From: an uncultured Alphaproteobacteria bacterium
GTDB lineage: Bacteria; Pseudomonadota; Alphaproteobacteria; Rhizobiales; Xanthobacteraceae
Assembly: GCA_963733575.1 (NCBI GenBank)
Contig: CAVTDJ010000002.1
Location: 1,235,171 to 1,299,170 of the forward strand
Reading direction: 5' to 3'
Length of the DNA stretch: 64,000 bases
The position numbers and the translations under genes are program-made. Each line of letters begins with the position of its first letter. Within the stretch, counting starts at the first letter, position 1. The notes under the pieces are model-generated. The model was not told where the DNA came from and made no database searches. It worked only from the letters and a program-made list of their open reading frames with translations. Of the stretch, positions 40,850 to 44,115 are shown piece by piece.

Positions 40850-43033
40850 ATGGATGGCGGCCCCCTCAATACTACCTATCGGGTTGTGGAAGCGCTCCCC
40901 AAGGACGTCGGCCGTGGTCTCGCTCGCTTGGATCCGAAGGACATGGCCGAGCTCGGTGTCGAGATCGGTGACGTCATAGACGTCACTTCAACGCAGACGA
41001 CCGTGGCTCGCGTTATGCCGGCTCATGTCGAGCTGCGCGGCAAGCGCTCGATTCAGATTGACGGCATCTCGCGCGCCAACGCCGGCGCCAGTCTTGGCGG
41101 GCAGGTGAGCGTGCGCTTGACGGCGCCGAAGACGGCCCGCACGATCTTGTTGGCGCCGACCGATGCGCCGGCGCGCGCCGCACGCGGCCTCGAAGGTCGC
41201 TATCTGACCCGCCTGCTCGACGGCCTACCGATGGTCCCCGGCGACCGCGTTCGCGTCAATCCGTTCGGCACGCAGATGCGCAATTTCGTCGTGACGAAGG
41301 CAACGCCGCCGGGGCCCGTCATCGTCGCGCCTACGACCGTCATCACTTGTGAGGGCGGGTCCGCGCCGCGTCGAGAAGCGGTCACCTACGAGGATATCGG
41401 TGGACTGCACAAGGAGATGCGCCGCGTCCGCGAGATCATCGAACTCCCCCTCAAGTATCCCGAGGTCTTCGCGCATCTTGGCGTCGAGGCACCCAAGGGC
41501 GTCCTGCTCTACGGCCCGCCGGGCACCGGCAAGACTTTGATCGCGCGCGCCGTCGCCCACGAATCCAACGTTCATTTCATCCACATCAACGGCCCGGAAA
41601 TCATCGACAAGCTCTATGGGGCGAGCGAGGCCAATCTGCGCAAGATGTTCGAGGAGGCGGAAAAAAACGCGCCTTCCATCATCTTCATCGACGAGATCGA
41701 TGCCATCGCACCGAAGCGCGAGCAGATGGCGGGCGAGCGTCAGGTCGAGCGTCGCGTCGTCGCCCAGCTGCTATCCTTGATGGACGGTCTCGAAGCGCGC
41801 GGCCAGGTGGTCCTGATCGCCGCCACGAATCTTCCGAACTCGCTGGACCCGGCATTGCGCCGGCCCGGGCGTTTCGATCGGGAGATCGAGATCGGAATTC
41901 CGGACAAGGAGGGCCGACGCGAGGCACTGGAAATCCACAGCCGCGGGATGCCGCTGGCCGAGGCCGTCGACCTGGAGCGGATCGCCGGCATCACCCACGG
42001 ATTCGTCGGCGCCGACCTGGCTGCCCTATGCCGCGAAGCCGCCATGAGCGCGCTGCGACGGTTGATGCCGGACATCGATTTCAAGACCACCGAAATACCT
42101 TACGACAAGCTGGCTGCGCTCAAAGTCGAACGGACGGATTTCGAGGGAGCCCTGGCGGAAGTCGAGCCATCCGCTCTGCGCGAGGTCGCCACCGAGATCT
42201 CCGACATGCGCTGGGAGGACGTGGGCGGGTTGGACGAGGTGAAGCGGCTGCTGACCGAGGTCGTGCTGTGGCAACTGCGCTACGACACCCTCTTTCAACA
42301 GGCAGGGGTCCGTGCGCCCAAGGGCGTCCTTCTGCACGGCGCGCCGGGCACCGGCAAGACGCTTCTCGCCAAGGCGCTCGCCGGCGAAACCGAAGCGAAC
42401 TTCATCGCAGTGAAAGGTCCACAGCTGCTGAGCATGTGGATCGGCGAGTCGGAGCGAGGCGTGCGCGAGATGTTTCGCAAGGCGCGCCAGGCCGCTCCCT
42501 GCATCATCTTCTTCGACGAGATCGACGCGGTGGCGCCGCGCCGCGGTGGCGGCGGAGGCGGTCAGGTCACGGAGCGCGTGGTCGCGCAACTGCTTACTGA
42601 GCTCGACGGCATCGAGGATCTGAAGGGCGTGGTGGTGCTGGCGGCGACGAACCGCATGGACCGGTTGGATCCGGCCCTGCTGCGTCCGGGCCGGCTGGAG
42701 TTTCACATCGAGTTGCCGATGCCCGACGCAGCGGCGCGACGGGCAATCCTGCAAGTCCATCTCAAGCGCATGCCGCTGGGCAAGGACGTGAAGATCGACA
42801 CGCTGGTGCAGAGCACCGAAGGACTCGTGGGCGCCGATCTCGAAGGACTCTGCCGCCAGGCGGCGTTGTTCGCAATCCGTGAGGTGATCGAACCGGCCGC
42901 GACCAGGACTCCTCGCGCAAAGGAAGGCGCGGGGGCCAGCCATGCGGTGGAGCTGCTGCCCAAGCTGACAATCGCCAAACGGCATTTCGACCTGGCGCTC
43001 ACCGAGCGCGATGCCAACAGGAGCCGGCCATGA
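40850..43033 (+). CDS. Cdc48/VAT/p97-like AAA+ ATPase (N domain plus two AAA modules)
   Basis: 727 aa. The N-terminal double-psi-barrel-like region reads [37 protein letters not shown]1 has [15 protein letters not shown] and [15 protein letters not shown]2 has [15 protein letters not shown] and [14 protein letters not shown]. Confidence 0.88.
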
Positions 43034-44115
43034 GCCGCATCTATGTCTATGCCATCGTCCCGGCCACCGAGCGCCAACCGTTCCATGTCGCCGGCGTGTG
43101 GGCACCCGAACCTCAGGTGCGGACAATTCGCGGAGACGCGCTCGCCGCCGTCGTCGGCACAGCTCCTCCTATCGATTTCCGTGCCTTGTCGCGGGAGGAC
43201 GCGGTTCGCTACCTGCTGGCGCATCAACGCGTCGTGGAATCCGTGATGCGAACCTCGGCGGCGCTGCCGGTCAAATTCGGTACGACTTTGCCGGACGAAG
43301 CCGCGGTGACCAGCATGCTCATGCGTGGCGCCGCGGTTCTGGCAGCGCCGCTTATCGAGCTTTCGCAGCACGTTCAGATCGAGCTCATCGTCTCATGGAG
43401 CATTGACGATATCCTCCGCGAAGTCGCTGCGGAGGACGCGGTTGTCCGGCTCAAGGCTCAGATCGCCGCTCAGGCCGCGGGCGCCACCAGCGAACAACGT
43501 CTCGCGATCGGAAAGTTTGTAAAGGACTCGATTGATCGTCGCCGCGAAACCTGCCGAAGCCGCATCGTGGCGACAGTACGATCCGTCGCGGCCGACCTGG
43601 TCGAAAATTCCCTTATGGACGACCGAATGGTCGCCAATCTGGCTTTGTTGCTGGCGAAGGATGCGAGCGATGCGCTGGACCGGCGATTGGCTGAGCTCGA
43701 CGAGGAATTCGGGAAGCGGCTCAATTTTCGTTGCATAGGCCCGCTGCCGCCCTACAGCTTTGCCACCGTCGAGGTGAGCTTGCCGTCGTTCGAAGCTGTC
43801 GACCGCGCCCGCCGGGTCCTAAGCCTCGGCGAGAAAGCGGGCCTTGCGGAAATCAAGTCGGCCTATCGTCGGCAGATTCGGCAAGTGCATCCCGATGTCA
43901 CGACCGCGGCGCCCGTTAACGAAGGCGACGCGACGAGGCTCACCGACGCATACAAGACTTTGATGAATTATGCCGAAGCTTTGCCTTCAGCGGCTGGCGA
44001 CGAGGTCCCCGGTGAAACCGGCTATCGCTTCGACCGCGACACCGTCGAGGGCTCCATACTGGTGATGGTACGTCGCCAGGAGTTGCCGGTCGCGAGCGCG
44101 GACACTCGGTCATGA
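43030..44115 (+). CDS. GvpL/GvpF-family protein (paralogue 2) with a C-terminal J (DnaJ) domain
   Basis: The N-terminal ~250 aa are GvpL/F-like ([11 protein letters not shown]...[24 protein letters not shown]...[10 protein letters not shown]). They are followed by [30 protein letters not shown]...[11 protein letters not shown], which matches the J-domain helix II-HPD-helix III pattern. The HPD codons are at 43888-43896. Confidence 0.8.

What the first reader, a model, noticed from the sequence alone, without database searches (positions are those of the whole stretch)
43030..44115. GvpL/GvpF paralogue fused to a J domain with an intact HPD motif
- **Seen:** residues 1-250 have the GvpL/F hallmarks (IYVYAIVP..., [17 protein letters not shown]).
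- **Seen:** residues ~255-320 read [51 protein letters not shown]. This follows the J-domain consensus, with LG..A...EIK.AYR....HPD as helix II plus loop and the A-Y..L helix III. HPD is encoded at 43888-43896.
- **Established:** J domains with HPD recruit Hsp70/DnaK and stimulate its ATPase. GvpF/L proteins are minor gas-vesicle components or assembly factors that contact GvpA.
- **Inference:** this fusion would tether DnaK to the gas-vesicle assembly machinery or to the vesicle wall. I do not recall such a link being described, but I cannot search the literature here.
Basis: partly seen in the sequence, partly recalled or inferred. Interest (0 to 1): 0.88.

Follow-up and report, generated by a model that had tools for sequence, protein, structure and literature searches.

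The report
Gas-vesicle GvpF-like protein with J domain
A gas-vesicle assembly protein in this bacterium carries a genuine, conserved Hsp70-recruiting J domain, and hundreds of related gene clusters in several phyla share it, which points to an undescribed and directly testable role for the Hsp70 chaperone system in building these gas-filled protein organelles.

Summary
ORF 43030-44115 (+) encodes 361 aa. Residues 4-245 are a GvpL_GvpF domain (182 bits). Residues about 254-317 are a J domain above Pfam's curated threshold, with HPD encoded at 43888-43896.

A confident AlphaFold model places HPD in the helix II-III loop. The body matches GvpF crystal structures, and the C-terminal part superposes on J domains at 1.5-1.8 A.

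The fusion is not an artefact. It arose once, on a GvpF-like body (bootstrap 90/100), and occurs in Alphaproteobacteria, Chloroflexota (including gas-vacuolate 'Ca. Chloroploca'), Nitrospirota, Planctomycetota and others. HPD is invariant in 70 diverse relatives. Of 143 representatives at 50% identity, 90% have a Pfam J domain. About 8% are an HPD-less 'J-like' branch.

Context supports the Hsp70 reading:
- A CDC48-family AAA+ gene sits immediately upstream in 59 of 70 loci, overlapping by ATGA here.
- Hsp20 genes are common in these clusters.
- Some lineages encode a DnaK-type Hsp70 beside the fusion gene, plus DnaJ-type zinc-finger proteins.

Best explanation: a class C J-domain protein that brings Hsp70 to GvpA-family clients. 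This is inferred, not shown biochemically. I found no description of it in the searchable literature.

The parts
43030..44115 (+). Gene for the 361-aa GvpF-like/J-domain fusion protein. Its ATG overlaps the stop codon of the upstream CDC48-family gene (ATGA at 43030-43033). Its own stop overlaps the next gene's ATG (ATGA at 44112-44115). A GGAG lies at 43020-43023.
43039..43764 (+). GvpL_GvpF domain (residues 4-245), the presumed binding module for GvpA-family and accessory Gvp proteins.
   Evidence: Pfam PF06386, 181.6 bits. Foldseek matches to the GvpF crystal structures 4qsg and 6l5d, E about 1e-13. pLDDT is mostly 88-96.
43789..43980 (+). J domain (residues about 254-317): helix I 254-263, helix II 272-286, helix III 298-317. 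The Pfam match covers residues 263-313 (43816-43968).
43888..43896 (+). HPD tripeptide (H287, P288, D289), in the loop between helices II and III.
   Evidence: The sequence reads 'cat ccc gat'. Invariant in 70 of 70 relatives. Present in 75 of 78 locus ORFs; the 3 misses are truncated fragments. Present in 129 of 150 representatives at 50% identity.
44020..44079 (+). Family-specific conserved tail (residues about 331-350, '[20 protein letters not shown]'). It forms a short helix plus a hydrophobic beta-strand in the full-length model.
   Evidence: F334, V339, R349 and Q350 are at least 90% conserved. pLDDT is 83-88 in the full-length model. In the isolated C-terminal model the tail becomes a lower-confidence helix. 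Variants of the tail are present in all subfamilies.
40850..43033 (+). CDC48-family double-ring AAA+ ATPase (727 aa), translationally coupled to the fusion gene.
   Evidence: Pfam CDC48_N, CDC48_2, two AAA domains and AAA_lid_3. NCBIfam TIGR01243, 905 bits against a cut-off of 803. Immediate upstream neighbour in 59 of 70 related loci.
36992..37531 (+). Hsp20 / GvpH-like small heat-shock protein in the same cluster.
   Evidence: Pfam HSP20, 23.2 bits against a cut-off of 20.8, plus a GvpH hit of 18.3 bits. NCBIfam Hsp20, 134.9 bits against a cut-off of 140. Hsp20 genes occur in 53 of 80 related loci.
33705..33914 (+). gvpA, the major shell protein (69 aa) and presumed ultimate client.
   Evidence: Pfam Gas_vesicle, 59.8 bits
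35545..36603 (+). GvpN-like AAA+ (AAA_5) protein.
38622..39419 (+). Unfused GvpF-type paralogue. Its type is the sister group of the fused body.
   Evidence: Pfam, 236 bits; tree
39457..39717 (+). gvpG
   Evidence: Pfam GvpG, 83.3 bits
39721..40125 (+). gvpO
   Evidence: Pfam GvpO, 81 bits
40422..40772 (+). GvpJ-like GvpA-family protein.
   Evidence: Pfam Gas_vesicle, 62.5 bits
44112..44985 (+). Second GvpL/F paralogue, split by a frame switch near 44578-44586. Its orthologues are intact at 290 aa.
44933..45187 (+). GvpS/M-like GvpA-family protein.
   Evidence: Pfam Gas_vesicle, 55.2 bits
45184..45972 (+). Third unfused GvpL/F paralogue.
   Evidence: Pfam, 146.6 bits
46098..46367 (+). gvpK. 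The start codon is uncertain; the ORF as listed begins at 45846.
   Evidence: Pfam GvpK, 109.3 bits

Best explanation
The gene encodes a class C (specialised) J-domain protein. A GvpF-like body is the client- and site-binding module, and a C-terminal J domain recruits the cell's DnaK-type Hsp70 and triggers its ATP hydrolysis.

Proposed mechanism:
1. The GvpF-like body binds the very hydrophobic, aggregation-prone GvpA-family shell proteins, or the accessory-protein hub, as GvpF and GvpL do in model systems (established for other species, inferred here).
2. The J domain docks on ATP-bound Hsp70 through its basic helix II and HPD loop. Hsp70 then clamps onto the client next to it, or onto the GvpF-client complex to release it (inferred).
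3. This keeps shell subunits soluble and hands them on for insertion during gas-vesicle nucleation and growth. It probably works together with the translationally coupled CDC48-family unfoldase and the cluster's Hsp20 (inferred from gene order only).

In this organism the Hsp70 must be encoded outside the window, presumably the housekeeping DnaK. In some other lineages the gvp cluster brings its own Hsp70.
For: Shown here:
- The J domain scores above Pfam's curated threshold. The family profile hits only J-domain proteins in the PDB, with the best E 6e-12 and including 5nro_B, the DnaJ J domain bound to DnaK.
- The AlphaFold model (pLDDT 86.6, pTM 0.79) puts HPD in the helix II-III loop. It superposes on J domains at 1.5-1.8 A over about 50 residues.
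- HPD is invariant. K/R276 is present in 70 of 70 relatives, Y279 in 67 of 70 and R281 in 58 of 70. Helix II has a mean net charge of +2.4.
- The fused proteins form one clade when only the body is compared (bootstrap 90/100) and span at least 6 phyla.
- Of 143 representatives at 50% identity, 129 have Pfam DnaJ.
- Full-length Hsp70 genes (PF00012, 705-799 bits; best PDB match E. coli DnaK) lie directly upstream of the fusion gene in 5 loci, and within the same gvp cluster in L059, L067, L070, L079 and L081. They keep the R167, D393 and D481 equivalents.
- DnaJ-type CxxCxGxG proteins occur in those clusters.
- 'Ca. Chloroploca asiatica', which carries the fusion (L054), makes gas vesicles (PMC6180586).

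From the literature:
- GvpF is the primary partner of GvpA and is hypothesised to be chaperone-like (PMC11445434).
- GvpL is the hub for the accessory Gvps (PMC7688916).
- GvpA aggregation causes proteotoxic stress (PMC12848028).
- J-domain helix II, the HPD motif and DnaK R167 form the contact (PMC7289447).
Against: - There is no biochemical or genetic evidence of any kind.
- Canonical helix IV is missing; the Pfam match stops at profile position 55 of 63.
- Foldseek E-values for the J part are weak (0.02-0.5) although probabilities are about 1.0, as expected for a small helical domain.
- About 8% of representatives have lost HPD yet keep the C-terminal scaffold, and at least one of these still sits beside an Hsp70. 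The domain therefore has some role that does not need HPD.
- No Hsp70 is encoded in this window, and most type-1 clusters lack one.
- The most conserved neighbour is a CDC48-family ATPase, not an Hsp70.
- Whether the GvpF-like body of this paralogue binds GvpA at all is untested.
Confidence: 0.6

Rival explanations
1. Hsp70 recruitment is the same, but the purpose differs. The fusion protein marks misassembled, aggregated or collapsed shell material for extraction and recycling. It would work with the CDC48-family unfoldase and Hsp20 as an organelle-specific disaggregase and quality-control system, analogous to sHsp-DnaK-ClpB, and not in primary assembly.
For: - CDC48 is the immediate upstream neighbour in 59 of 70 loci and is translationally coupled here.
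- Hsp20 genes are in the clusters.
- Hsp70 and CDC48 are adjacent and overlapping in L081.
- A conserved HEHxH-motif protein lies next to the Hsp20.
- GvpA aggregates are toxic (PMC12848028).
Against: - The gene sits among core assembly genes (gvpJ, gvpS, gvpK, gvpL/F) and not apart from them.
- Model clusters build vesicles without any such system, so this evidence cannot separate assembly from recycling.
- No protease domain was detected by Pfam or NCBIfam in the HEHxH protein.
Confidence: 0.2
2. The C-terminal domain is mainly a structural or adaptor module, for example docking the GvpF-like body to the CDC48-family ATPase or to other Gvps. Stimulation of the Hsp70 ATPase would be incidental or absent.
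For: - An HPD-less branch keeps helices I and II and the overall length.
- Helix IV is replaced by a family-specific tail that is as conserved as the J core.
- The pTM of 0.79 suggests that the J domain is packed in a fixed orientation on the body.
- The gene is tightly coupled to CDC48.
Against: - HPD is invariant in the window's clade and across most phyla. Where HPD is lost, the helix III AY..L signature is lost with it, which is the pattern expected if HPD is kept by selection for Hsp70 interaction.
- Hsp70 genes are embedded in related clusters.
- From general knowledge, I know of no precedent for a J domain activating a CDC48-type ATPase.
Confidence: 0.12
3. The fusion is an assembly or annotation artefact: two genes joined by an indel. 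The window does contain frameshifted genes.
For: At least two genes in the window are split by apparent frameshifts: GvpL2 near 44578-44586 and the sulfatase at 46863-48553.
Against: The same 340-380 aa architecture occurs in at least 120 clusters at 90% identity, in at least 129 representatives at 50% identity, and in 80 species-level genomes from independent projects and phyla. A continuous, confidently folded model spans the junction.
Confidence: 0.01

Closest known systems
GvpF / GvpL gas-vesicle accessory proteins (Microcystis GvpF 4QSG, Anabaena GvpF 6L5D, Halobacterium GvpF and GvpL)
   Same: The match to PF06386 is full length and the fold is the same (Foldseek E about 1e-13, TM 0.58-0.66 on the target). 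The gene lies in a gvp cluster with gvpA, J, S, K, N, G and O. In model systems these proteins bind GvpA (GvpF) or all the accessory Gvps (GvpL).
   Different: It carries about 110 extra C-terminal residues: a J domain plus a conserved tail. It scores far below the NCBIfam equivalog cut-offs for cyanobacterial GvpF (75.8 against 350) and for GvpL (63.3 against 200). It forms its own clade, sister to the GvpF-type paralogues. None of the model clusters named in the papers I read (Halobacterium, cyanobacteria, B. megaterium, Serratia) is described as having it.
Class C J-domain proteins with a dedicated client or site-binding domain (HscB with IscU, auxilin with the clathrin lattice, bacterial DjlA with a C-terminal J domain)
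   Same: It has a J domain with HPD and a basic helix II joined to an unrelated targeting domain. It lacks the G/F region, zinc finger and C-terminal domains of class A and B proteins. The logic of bringing Hsp70 to one specific client or assembly is the same. As in auxilin and DjlA, the J domain is C-terminal.
   Different: The targeting domain (GvpL_GvpF) is new for a described J-domain protein. NCBIfam scores for DjlA, HscB, CbpA and DnaJ are all far below their cut-offs. Helix IV is replaced by a family-specific tail. The client would be the shell of a gas-filled protein organelle.
The sHsp-DnaK/DnaJ-ClpB bi-chaperone network
   Same: The cluster combines a small heat-shock protein, a J domain (hence Hsp70) and a double-ring AAA+ unfoldase. 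Some relatives add their own Hsp70 and a DnaJ-type zinc-finger protein.
   Different: The AAA+ protein belongs to the CDC48 family and not to ClpB. The components are encoded inside an organelle gene cluster, and the J domain is on an organelle protein. No GrpE was seen. Any cooperation is inferred from gene order only.
J-like proteins that lack HPD (for example Pam16/Tim16; from general knowledge)
   Same: About 8% of the family's representatives at 50% identity keep the helical scaffold but have lost HPD.
   Different: The window protein and 90% of the family retain HPD, so this comparison applies only to a side branch.

Membership tests
J-domain protein (JDP) | A match to the J-domain model (PF00226) above the curated threshold | tested here: met
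   33.5 bits against a cut-off of 27.8 for the full protein, and 36.4 bits for the C-terminal 111 aa. The family profile against the PDB gives E 6e-12, with J-domain proteins only among the listed hits.
J-domain protein (JDP) | An HPD tripeptide in the loop between helices II and III | tested here: met
   H287, P288 and D289 lie between helix 272-286 and helix 298-317 in the model. They are invariant in 70 relatives.
J-domain protein (JDP) | A positively charged helix II that contacts the Hsp70 NBD (PMC7289447) | tested here: met
   The window protein has K276, R280, R281 and R284. Across the family the mean net charge is +2.4, and K/R276 is present in 70 of 70.
J-domain protein (JDP) | A four-helix J fold (helices I to IV) | tested here: inconclusive
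   Helices I to III are confident and superpose on J domains at 1.5-1.8 A over about 50 residues. Canonical helix IV is not matched, since the Pfam match covers profile positions 5-55 of 63. A family-specific tail follows instead.
J-domain protein (JDP) | Stimulates the Hsp70 ATPase in an HPD-dependent way | not testable with these tools
   The only support is contextual: Hsp70 genes lie next to orthologous fusion genes.
Class C JDP (neither class A nor class B) | Lacks the G/F region, the CxxCxGxG zinc finger and the DnaJ C-terminal domains, and has another domain instead | tested here: met
   Pfam finds only PF06386 and PF00226. DnaJ_bact TIGR02349 scores 22.5 against a cut-off of 377.
GvpL/GvpF family | A full-length PF06386 match and a GvpF-like fold | tested here: met
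   181.6 bits, profile positions 2-244 of 245. Foldseek matches 4qsg and 6l5d at E about 1e-13.
GvpL/GvpF family | Encoded in a gvp cluster with gvpA-family genes, gvpK, gvpN and others | tested here: met
   The synteny is conserved in 80 loci.
GvpL/GvpF family | Orthology to characterised GvpF (cyanobacterial) or GvpL (NCBIfam equivalogs) | tested here: not met
   NF052351 scores 75.8 against a cut-off of 350, and NF045778 scores 63.3 against 200. The protein forms a separate clade, sister to GvpF-type paralogues.
GvpL/GvpF family | Binds GvpA and/or accessory Gvp proteins | not testable with these tools
   Known for Halobacterium and B. megaterium proteins, but not for this paralogue.
DjlA / HscB / CbpA (named bacterial JDPs) | A match to the NCBIfam equivalog model above its cut-off | tested here: not met
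   DjlA scores 18.3 against 162, HscB 14.1 against 169 and CbpA 15.6 against 403.

The most novel reading that the evidence does not exclude
In a large, cross-phylum class of gas-vesicle clusters, shell assembly would not be purely self-assembly guided by passive accessory proteins. It would be driven by a dedicated, ATP-powered proteostasis machine encoded in the cluster. The GvpF-J protein would be the organelle-specific adaptor that couples Hsp70 (housekeeping or cluster-encoded) and a CDC48-family unfoldase to GvpA-family subunits, with Hsp20 and perhaps the conserved HEHxH protein as further parts. This would be the first organelle-specific J protein/Hsp70 system described for a bacterial protein-shelled compartment.
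Probability: 0.35. Interest if true: 0.85.

Novelty: new variant of a known kind. Interest (0 to 1): 0.72.

Why it matters
How the extremely hydrophobic GvpA is kept soluble, delivered and inserted into a growing gas-vesicle shell is an open question. GvpF and GvpL are only hypothesised to be 'chaperone-like' (PMC11445434). A conserved J domain on a GvpF-like protein, with Hsp70, Hsp20 and CDC48-family genes in the same clusters, gives a concrete hypothesis that can be tested genetically and biochemically: a canonical ATP-dependent chaperone system takes part in building or maintaining the organelle.

It also has practical interest. Heterologous gas-vesicle expression for ultrasound reporters is limited by GvpA proteotoxicity (PMC12848028). 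These clusters may carry their own solution, and the fusion suggests engineering a J domain onto GvpF in existing reporter clusters.

For the chaperone field it adds a widespread bacterial class C J-protein architecture with an identifiable client.

Tried and rejected
- An exact look-up of the window protein in the contig index found nothing, so the context came from GTDB loci instead.
- The first tree script timed out.
- The first monophyly test failed because one unfused L079 paralogue had been labelled 'GvpLJ' by best hit. Redone on the J-carrying proteins, the clade is supported 90/100.
- My first regular expressions for the DnaK R167 and linker motifs, written from memory, were too strict. 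Looser ones showed the motifs. The E. coli reference motifs are from memory.
- The Pfam scan of the 150-sequence alignment exceeded the residue limit. It was repeated with 143 sequences.
- Foldseek E-values for the J part are weak (0.02-0.5). I rely on probabilities, rmsd and the sequence-profile E-values instead.
I inferred that it depends on the GvpF body by comparing the full-length and isolated models.
- Literature: 'gas vesicle' with 'J domain', 'J-domain', 'DnaJ', 'Hsp70', 'DnaK' or 'Cdc48' returned nothing describing the fusion or a cluster Hsp70.
- The 280,000-protein JDP survey (PMC10410713) does not mention Gvp in its main text, and its supplements are not held. The review of bacterial and phage J-domain proteins that it cites could not be found. 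An incidental listing there cannot be excluded.
- I considered and rejected membership of DnaJ, DjlA, HscB and CbpA and the artefact explanation.
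Full report
**1. Observation**

- Pfam finds GvpL_GvpF at residues 4-245 (E 3.6e-53, 181.6 bits).
- Pfam finds DnaJ (the J domain) at residues 263-313 (E 4.6e-08, 33.5 bits against a gathering cut-off of 27.8). The score is 36.4 bits when the C-terminal 111 aa are scanned alone.
- HPD is residues 287-289, encoded by 'cat ccc gat' at 43888-43896, exactly as stated.
- The gene's ATG overlaps the stop of the upstream gene (ATGA, 43030-43033), with a GGAG 7-10 nt upstream. 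Its stop overlaps the next ATG (ATGA, 44112-44115).

**2. Is the J domain real?**

Sequence evidence:
- A single-sequence search of the PDB with the C-terminal 111 aa returns J domains almost exclusively, with HPD aligned to HPD.
- A profile built from 26 relatives matches 66 PDB sequences at E <= 0.01. All 60 listed are J-domain proteins. The best are Tid1 (6e-12) and E. coli DnaJ (4-7e-11), including 5nro_B, the J domain crystallised on DnaK.

Structure evidence:
- An AlphaFold2 model built on 70 relatives is confident (mean pLDDT 86.6, pTM 0.79). It shows helix I at 254-263, helix II at 272-286, HPD in the following loop, and helix III at 298-317.
- Foldseek matches the body to the GvpF crystal structures 4qsg and 6l5d (E about 1e-13).
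- It matches the C-terminal part to J domains with probability about 1.0 and rmsd 1.5-1.7 A over 50 columns.
- A model of the C-terminal 112 aa alone keeps helices I to III at pLDDT 85-92. Its top hits are almost all J domains, for example 5nro_B at 1.7 A over 52 columns with TM 0.70.
- Foldseek E-values for this small domain are weak (0.02-0.5), so the sequence-profile evidence is the stronger.

Functional residues:
- The positions that matter for Hsp70 contact (helix II to NBD subdomain IIa, HPD aspartate to DnaK R167; PMC7289447) are kept.
- K/R276 is present in 70 of 70 relatives, Y279 in 67 of 70, R281 in 58 of 70 and HPD in 70 of 70. Helix II carries a mean net charge of +2.4.
- The mapping to E. 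coli DnaJ numbering rests on my alignment and my memory of the DnaJ sequence.
- Canonical helix IV is not matched (Pfam profile positions 5-55 of 63).

**3. A family, not a one-off**

- The 5.8-billion-protein search returned 256 relatives. The 120 best are nearly all annotated PF00226 plus PF06386, are 340-380 aa long and go down to 43% identity.
- HPD occurs in 122 of 126 retrieved sequences. The exceptions are HSD, HAD, one frameshifted sequence and one truncated one.
- In one genome per GTDB species, 324 stretches encode a relative. The 80 loci fetched come from Xanthobacteraceae, Hyphomicrobium and Beijerinckiaceae; from many Chloroflexota (Anaerolineae, Dehalococcoidia, Ktedonobacter, Oscillochloris, 'Ca. 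Chloroploca'); and from Armatimonadota, Nitrospirota, Omnitrophota, Planctomycetota and 'Edwardsbacteria'.
- HPD is present in 75 of 78 fusion ORFs in those loci. The three misses are truncated fragments.
- An exhaustive profile search of 1.84 billion representatives at 50% identity gave 816 hits at E <= 1e-30.
- Of the top 143 non-fragmentary ones, all have GvpL_GvpF and 129 (90%) have a Pfam DnaJ hit, the best at 2.6e-16.
- An NJ tree built on the GvpL/F body alone (64 proteins, 18 loci) places all J-carrying proteins in one clade (bootstrap 90/100), sister to the GvpF-type paralogues. The fusion therefore arose once, on a GvpF-like body.
- 'Ca. Chloroploca asiatica', which carries the fusion (L054), is documented to form gas vesicles (PMC6180586). 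Clusters with this gene are therefore evidently functional.

**4. A degenerate side branch**

- About 12 of the 150 representatives are full length but have lost HPD (QRK, RRN, QSH and others). They have also lost the helix III 'AY..L' signature, while keeping helices I and II ('VRRAYRRLAA'), and they have a different tail ('IEPSRFG').
- This shows that HPD can decay. Its invariance elsewhere therefore reflects selection.
- It also shows that the domain has some role independent of HPD.
- One such protein (P0233) still sits in a gvp cluster with an Hsp70 immediately followed by a CDC48-family gene (L081).

**5. The tail**

- After a low-confidence linker (residues 321-329) comes a conserved motif, 'YRFDRxTVExxILVxVRRQE'. 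F334, V339, R349 and Q350 are at least 90% conserved.
- Variants of the motif occur in every subfamily.
- In the full-length model it is a short helix plus a beta-strand at pLDDT 83-88. In the isolated C-terminal model it turns into a lower-confidence helix.
- I infer that the strand packs on the GvpF body and fixes the orientation of the J domain. The high pTM is consistent with that.
- A hydrophobic core flanked by arginines also resembles an Hsp70-binding peptide. That reading is speculation.

**6. Genomic context**

The window holds a complete gvp cluster, in this order:
- FixJ/LuxR regulator (32453-33385)
- gvpA (33705-33914)
- two unknown genes
- gvpN-like (35545-36603)
- a coiled-coil ORF
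- Hsp20/GvpH-like (36992-37531)
- an unknown 358-aa protein (37549-38625)
- GvpF (38622-39419)
- gvpG
- gvpO
- a 94-aa ORF
- gvpJ-like (40422-40772)
- a CDC48-family AAA+ (40850-43033; TIGR01243, 905 bits against a cut-off of 803)
- the fusion gene
- a second GvpL/F
- gvpS-like
- a third GvpL/F
- gvpK

This order is conserved almost gene for gene between Alphaproteobacteria and Chloroflexota. The CDC48-family gene is the immediate upstream neighbour of the fusion gene in 59 of the 70 loci that have upstream sequence.

In a second cluster type, a full-length Hsp70 lies directly upstream of the fusion gene (L056, L062, L064, L068, L073) or elsewhere in the cluster (L059, L067, L070, and truncated in L079).
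- These proteins score PF00012 at 705-799 bits, and their best PDB match is E. coli DnaK.
- They keep the R167, D393 and D481 equivalents.
- The same clusters encode small DnaJ-type CxxCxGxG zinc-finger proteins (PF00684, 34.5-43.4 bits against a cut-off of 32.7).

No Hsp70 motif occurs in the window itself. Here the partner would have to be a DnaK encoded elsewhere in the genome, which is an inference.

**7. Mechanism**

Established elsewhere:
- GvpF is the primary partner of GvpA and has been proposed to be chaperone-like. GvpL needs GvpS, GvpK and GvpJ to reach GvpA (PMC11445434).
- Halobacterial GvpL binds all the accessory Gvps (PMC7688916).
- GvpA aggregates and is proteotoxic unless assembly factors are present first (PMC12848028).
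- J domains with HPD trigger Hsp70 ATP hydrolysis, so that Hsp70 clamps onto a nearby client.

Putting these together, I propose that the protein is a class C J-domain protein. Its GvpF-like body binds GvpA-family subunits or the nucleation hub, and its J domain loads Hsp70 onto them. The result would be either to hold and deliver subunits or to release the GvpF-client complex. It probably acts in concert with the coupled CDC48-family unfoldase and the Hsp20.

What is shown: domain identity, conservation, phylogeny and gene context. What is inferred: client binding, Hsp70 activation, and the stage of action.

The main rival keeps Hsp70 recruitment but places it in quality control or recycling of misassembled or collapsed shells. 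A weaker rival makes the domain a structural adaptor. The artefact explanation is excluded.

**8. Novelty**

- The domain pair is already visible in precomputed Pfam annotations, and one IMG entry is named 'DnaJ-domain-containing protein 1'. NCBI calls these proteins only 'GvpL/GvpF family'.
- None of my literature searches found a description of a gas-vesicle J protein, or of Hsp70 or CDC48 genes in gvp clusters.
- The large JDP survey does not mention it in its main text.
- A review of bacterial JDPs and the survey's supplements could not be read.
- I therefore rate it a new variant of a known kind: a class C JDP with a new targeting domain, and a new chaperone link for gas vesicles.

Interest: 0.72.

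Noticed in passing
window 40850-43033: A CDC48-family double-ring AAA+ ATPase (TIGR01243, 905 bits against a cut-off of 803) is encoded inside the gvp cluster and is translationally coupled (ATGA overlap) to the fusion gene. It is the immediate upstream neighbour in 59 of 70 related loci. I found no literature on CDC48-type ATPases in gvp clusters.
   Followed up: partly
L056:1941-3770, L062:8079-9962, L064:8112-9962, L068:8034-9962, L073:8134-9966, L059:17154-18995, L070:16304-18142, L067:19622-20923, L079:16046-16654, L081:5456-7024: DnaK-type Hsp70 genes are embedded in gvp clusters of Chloroflexota, Nitrospirota, Planctomycetota and others. In five loci the Hsp70 gene lies directly upstream of the GvpF-J gene. 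In L081 it overlaps a CDC48-family gene.
   Followed up: yes
L059:7373-7747, L067:16126-16518, L079:8345-8779: Small stand-alone proteins with DnaJ-type CxxCxGxG zinc-finger repeats (PF00684, above threshold) are encoded in the Hsp70-containing gvp clusters. It looks as if the parts of a DnaJ were distributed over several cluster genes.
   Followed up: partly
window 37549-38625: A conserved 358-aa cluster protein has no Pfam or NCBIfam hit but carries an HEH[AGS]H motif ('LLAHEHGHPL') in 41 of 41 full-length orthologues across phyla. It may be a zinc-metallopeptidase-like protein, and it lies next to the Hsp20 gene.
   Followed up: partly
window 44112-44985 (frame switch near 44578-44586): The GvpL/F paralogue immediately downstream of the fusion gene is split into two overlapping ORFs by a +1 frame switch. 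Its orthologues are intact at 290 aa (76% identity on both sides).
   Followed up: yes
window 46863-47462 and 47435-48553; also 48796-48972: A sulfatase gene is split into two ORFs (Pfam Sulfatase profile 1-139 and 128-300). This is a second apparent frameshift in the window and suggests assembly indel errors. A short second sulfatase-like N-terminal fragment follows.
   Followed up: partly
P0206, P0209, P0214, P0220, P0223, P0225, P0233, P0239, P0243, P0244, P0246, P0264 (L081:444-1508 for P0233): A side branch of the family has lost HPD and the helix III signature but keeps helices I and II and a different conserved tail ('IEPSRFG'). It is a 'J-like' GvpF fusion.
   Followed up: partly
window 33705-46367 compared with L001-L066: The whole roughly 13-kb gvp cluster order, including five conserved genes of unknown function (34068-34619, 34787-35548, 36600-36947, 37549-38625, 40122-40406), is syntenic between Alphaproteobacteria and Chloroflexota. 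This suggests horizontal transfer of the complete cluster.
   Followed up: partly
window 32453-33385: A FixJ/LuxR-type response regulator (Response_reg plus GerE domains) lies immediately upstream of gvpA. It is a candidate regulator of the cluster.
   Followed up: no
window 49792-49877 (-): tRNA-Leu (anticodon TAA).
   Followed up: no
P0101: A 440-aa database protein combines AAA, AAA_lid_3 and GvpL_GvpF domains. It is probably a read-through of the overlapping junction between the CDC48-family gene and the GvpF-J gene in another assembly.
   Followed up: no
L020, L022, L028, L029, L040, L043 (gene downstream of the fusion gene): The GvpL2 orthologues of many Chloroflexota appear as ORFs of 400-450 aa, against 290 aa in Alphaproteobacteria. 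This is either an extra domain or over-extended ORF calls in my script.
   Followed up: no
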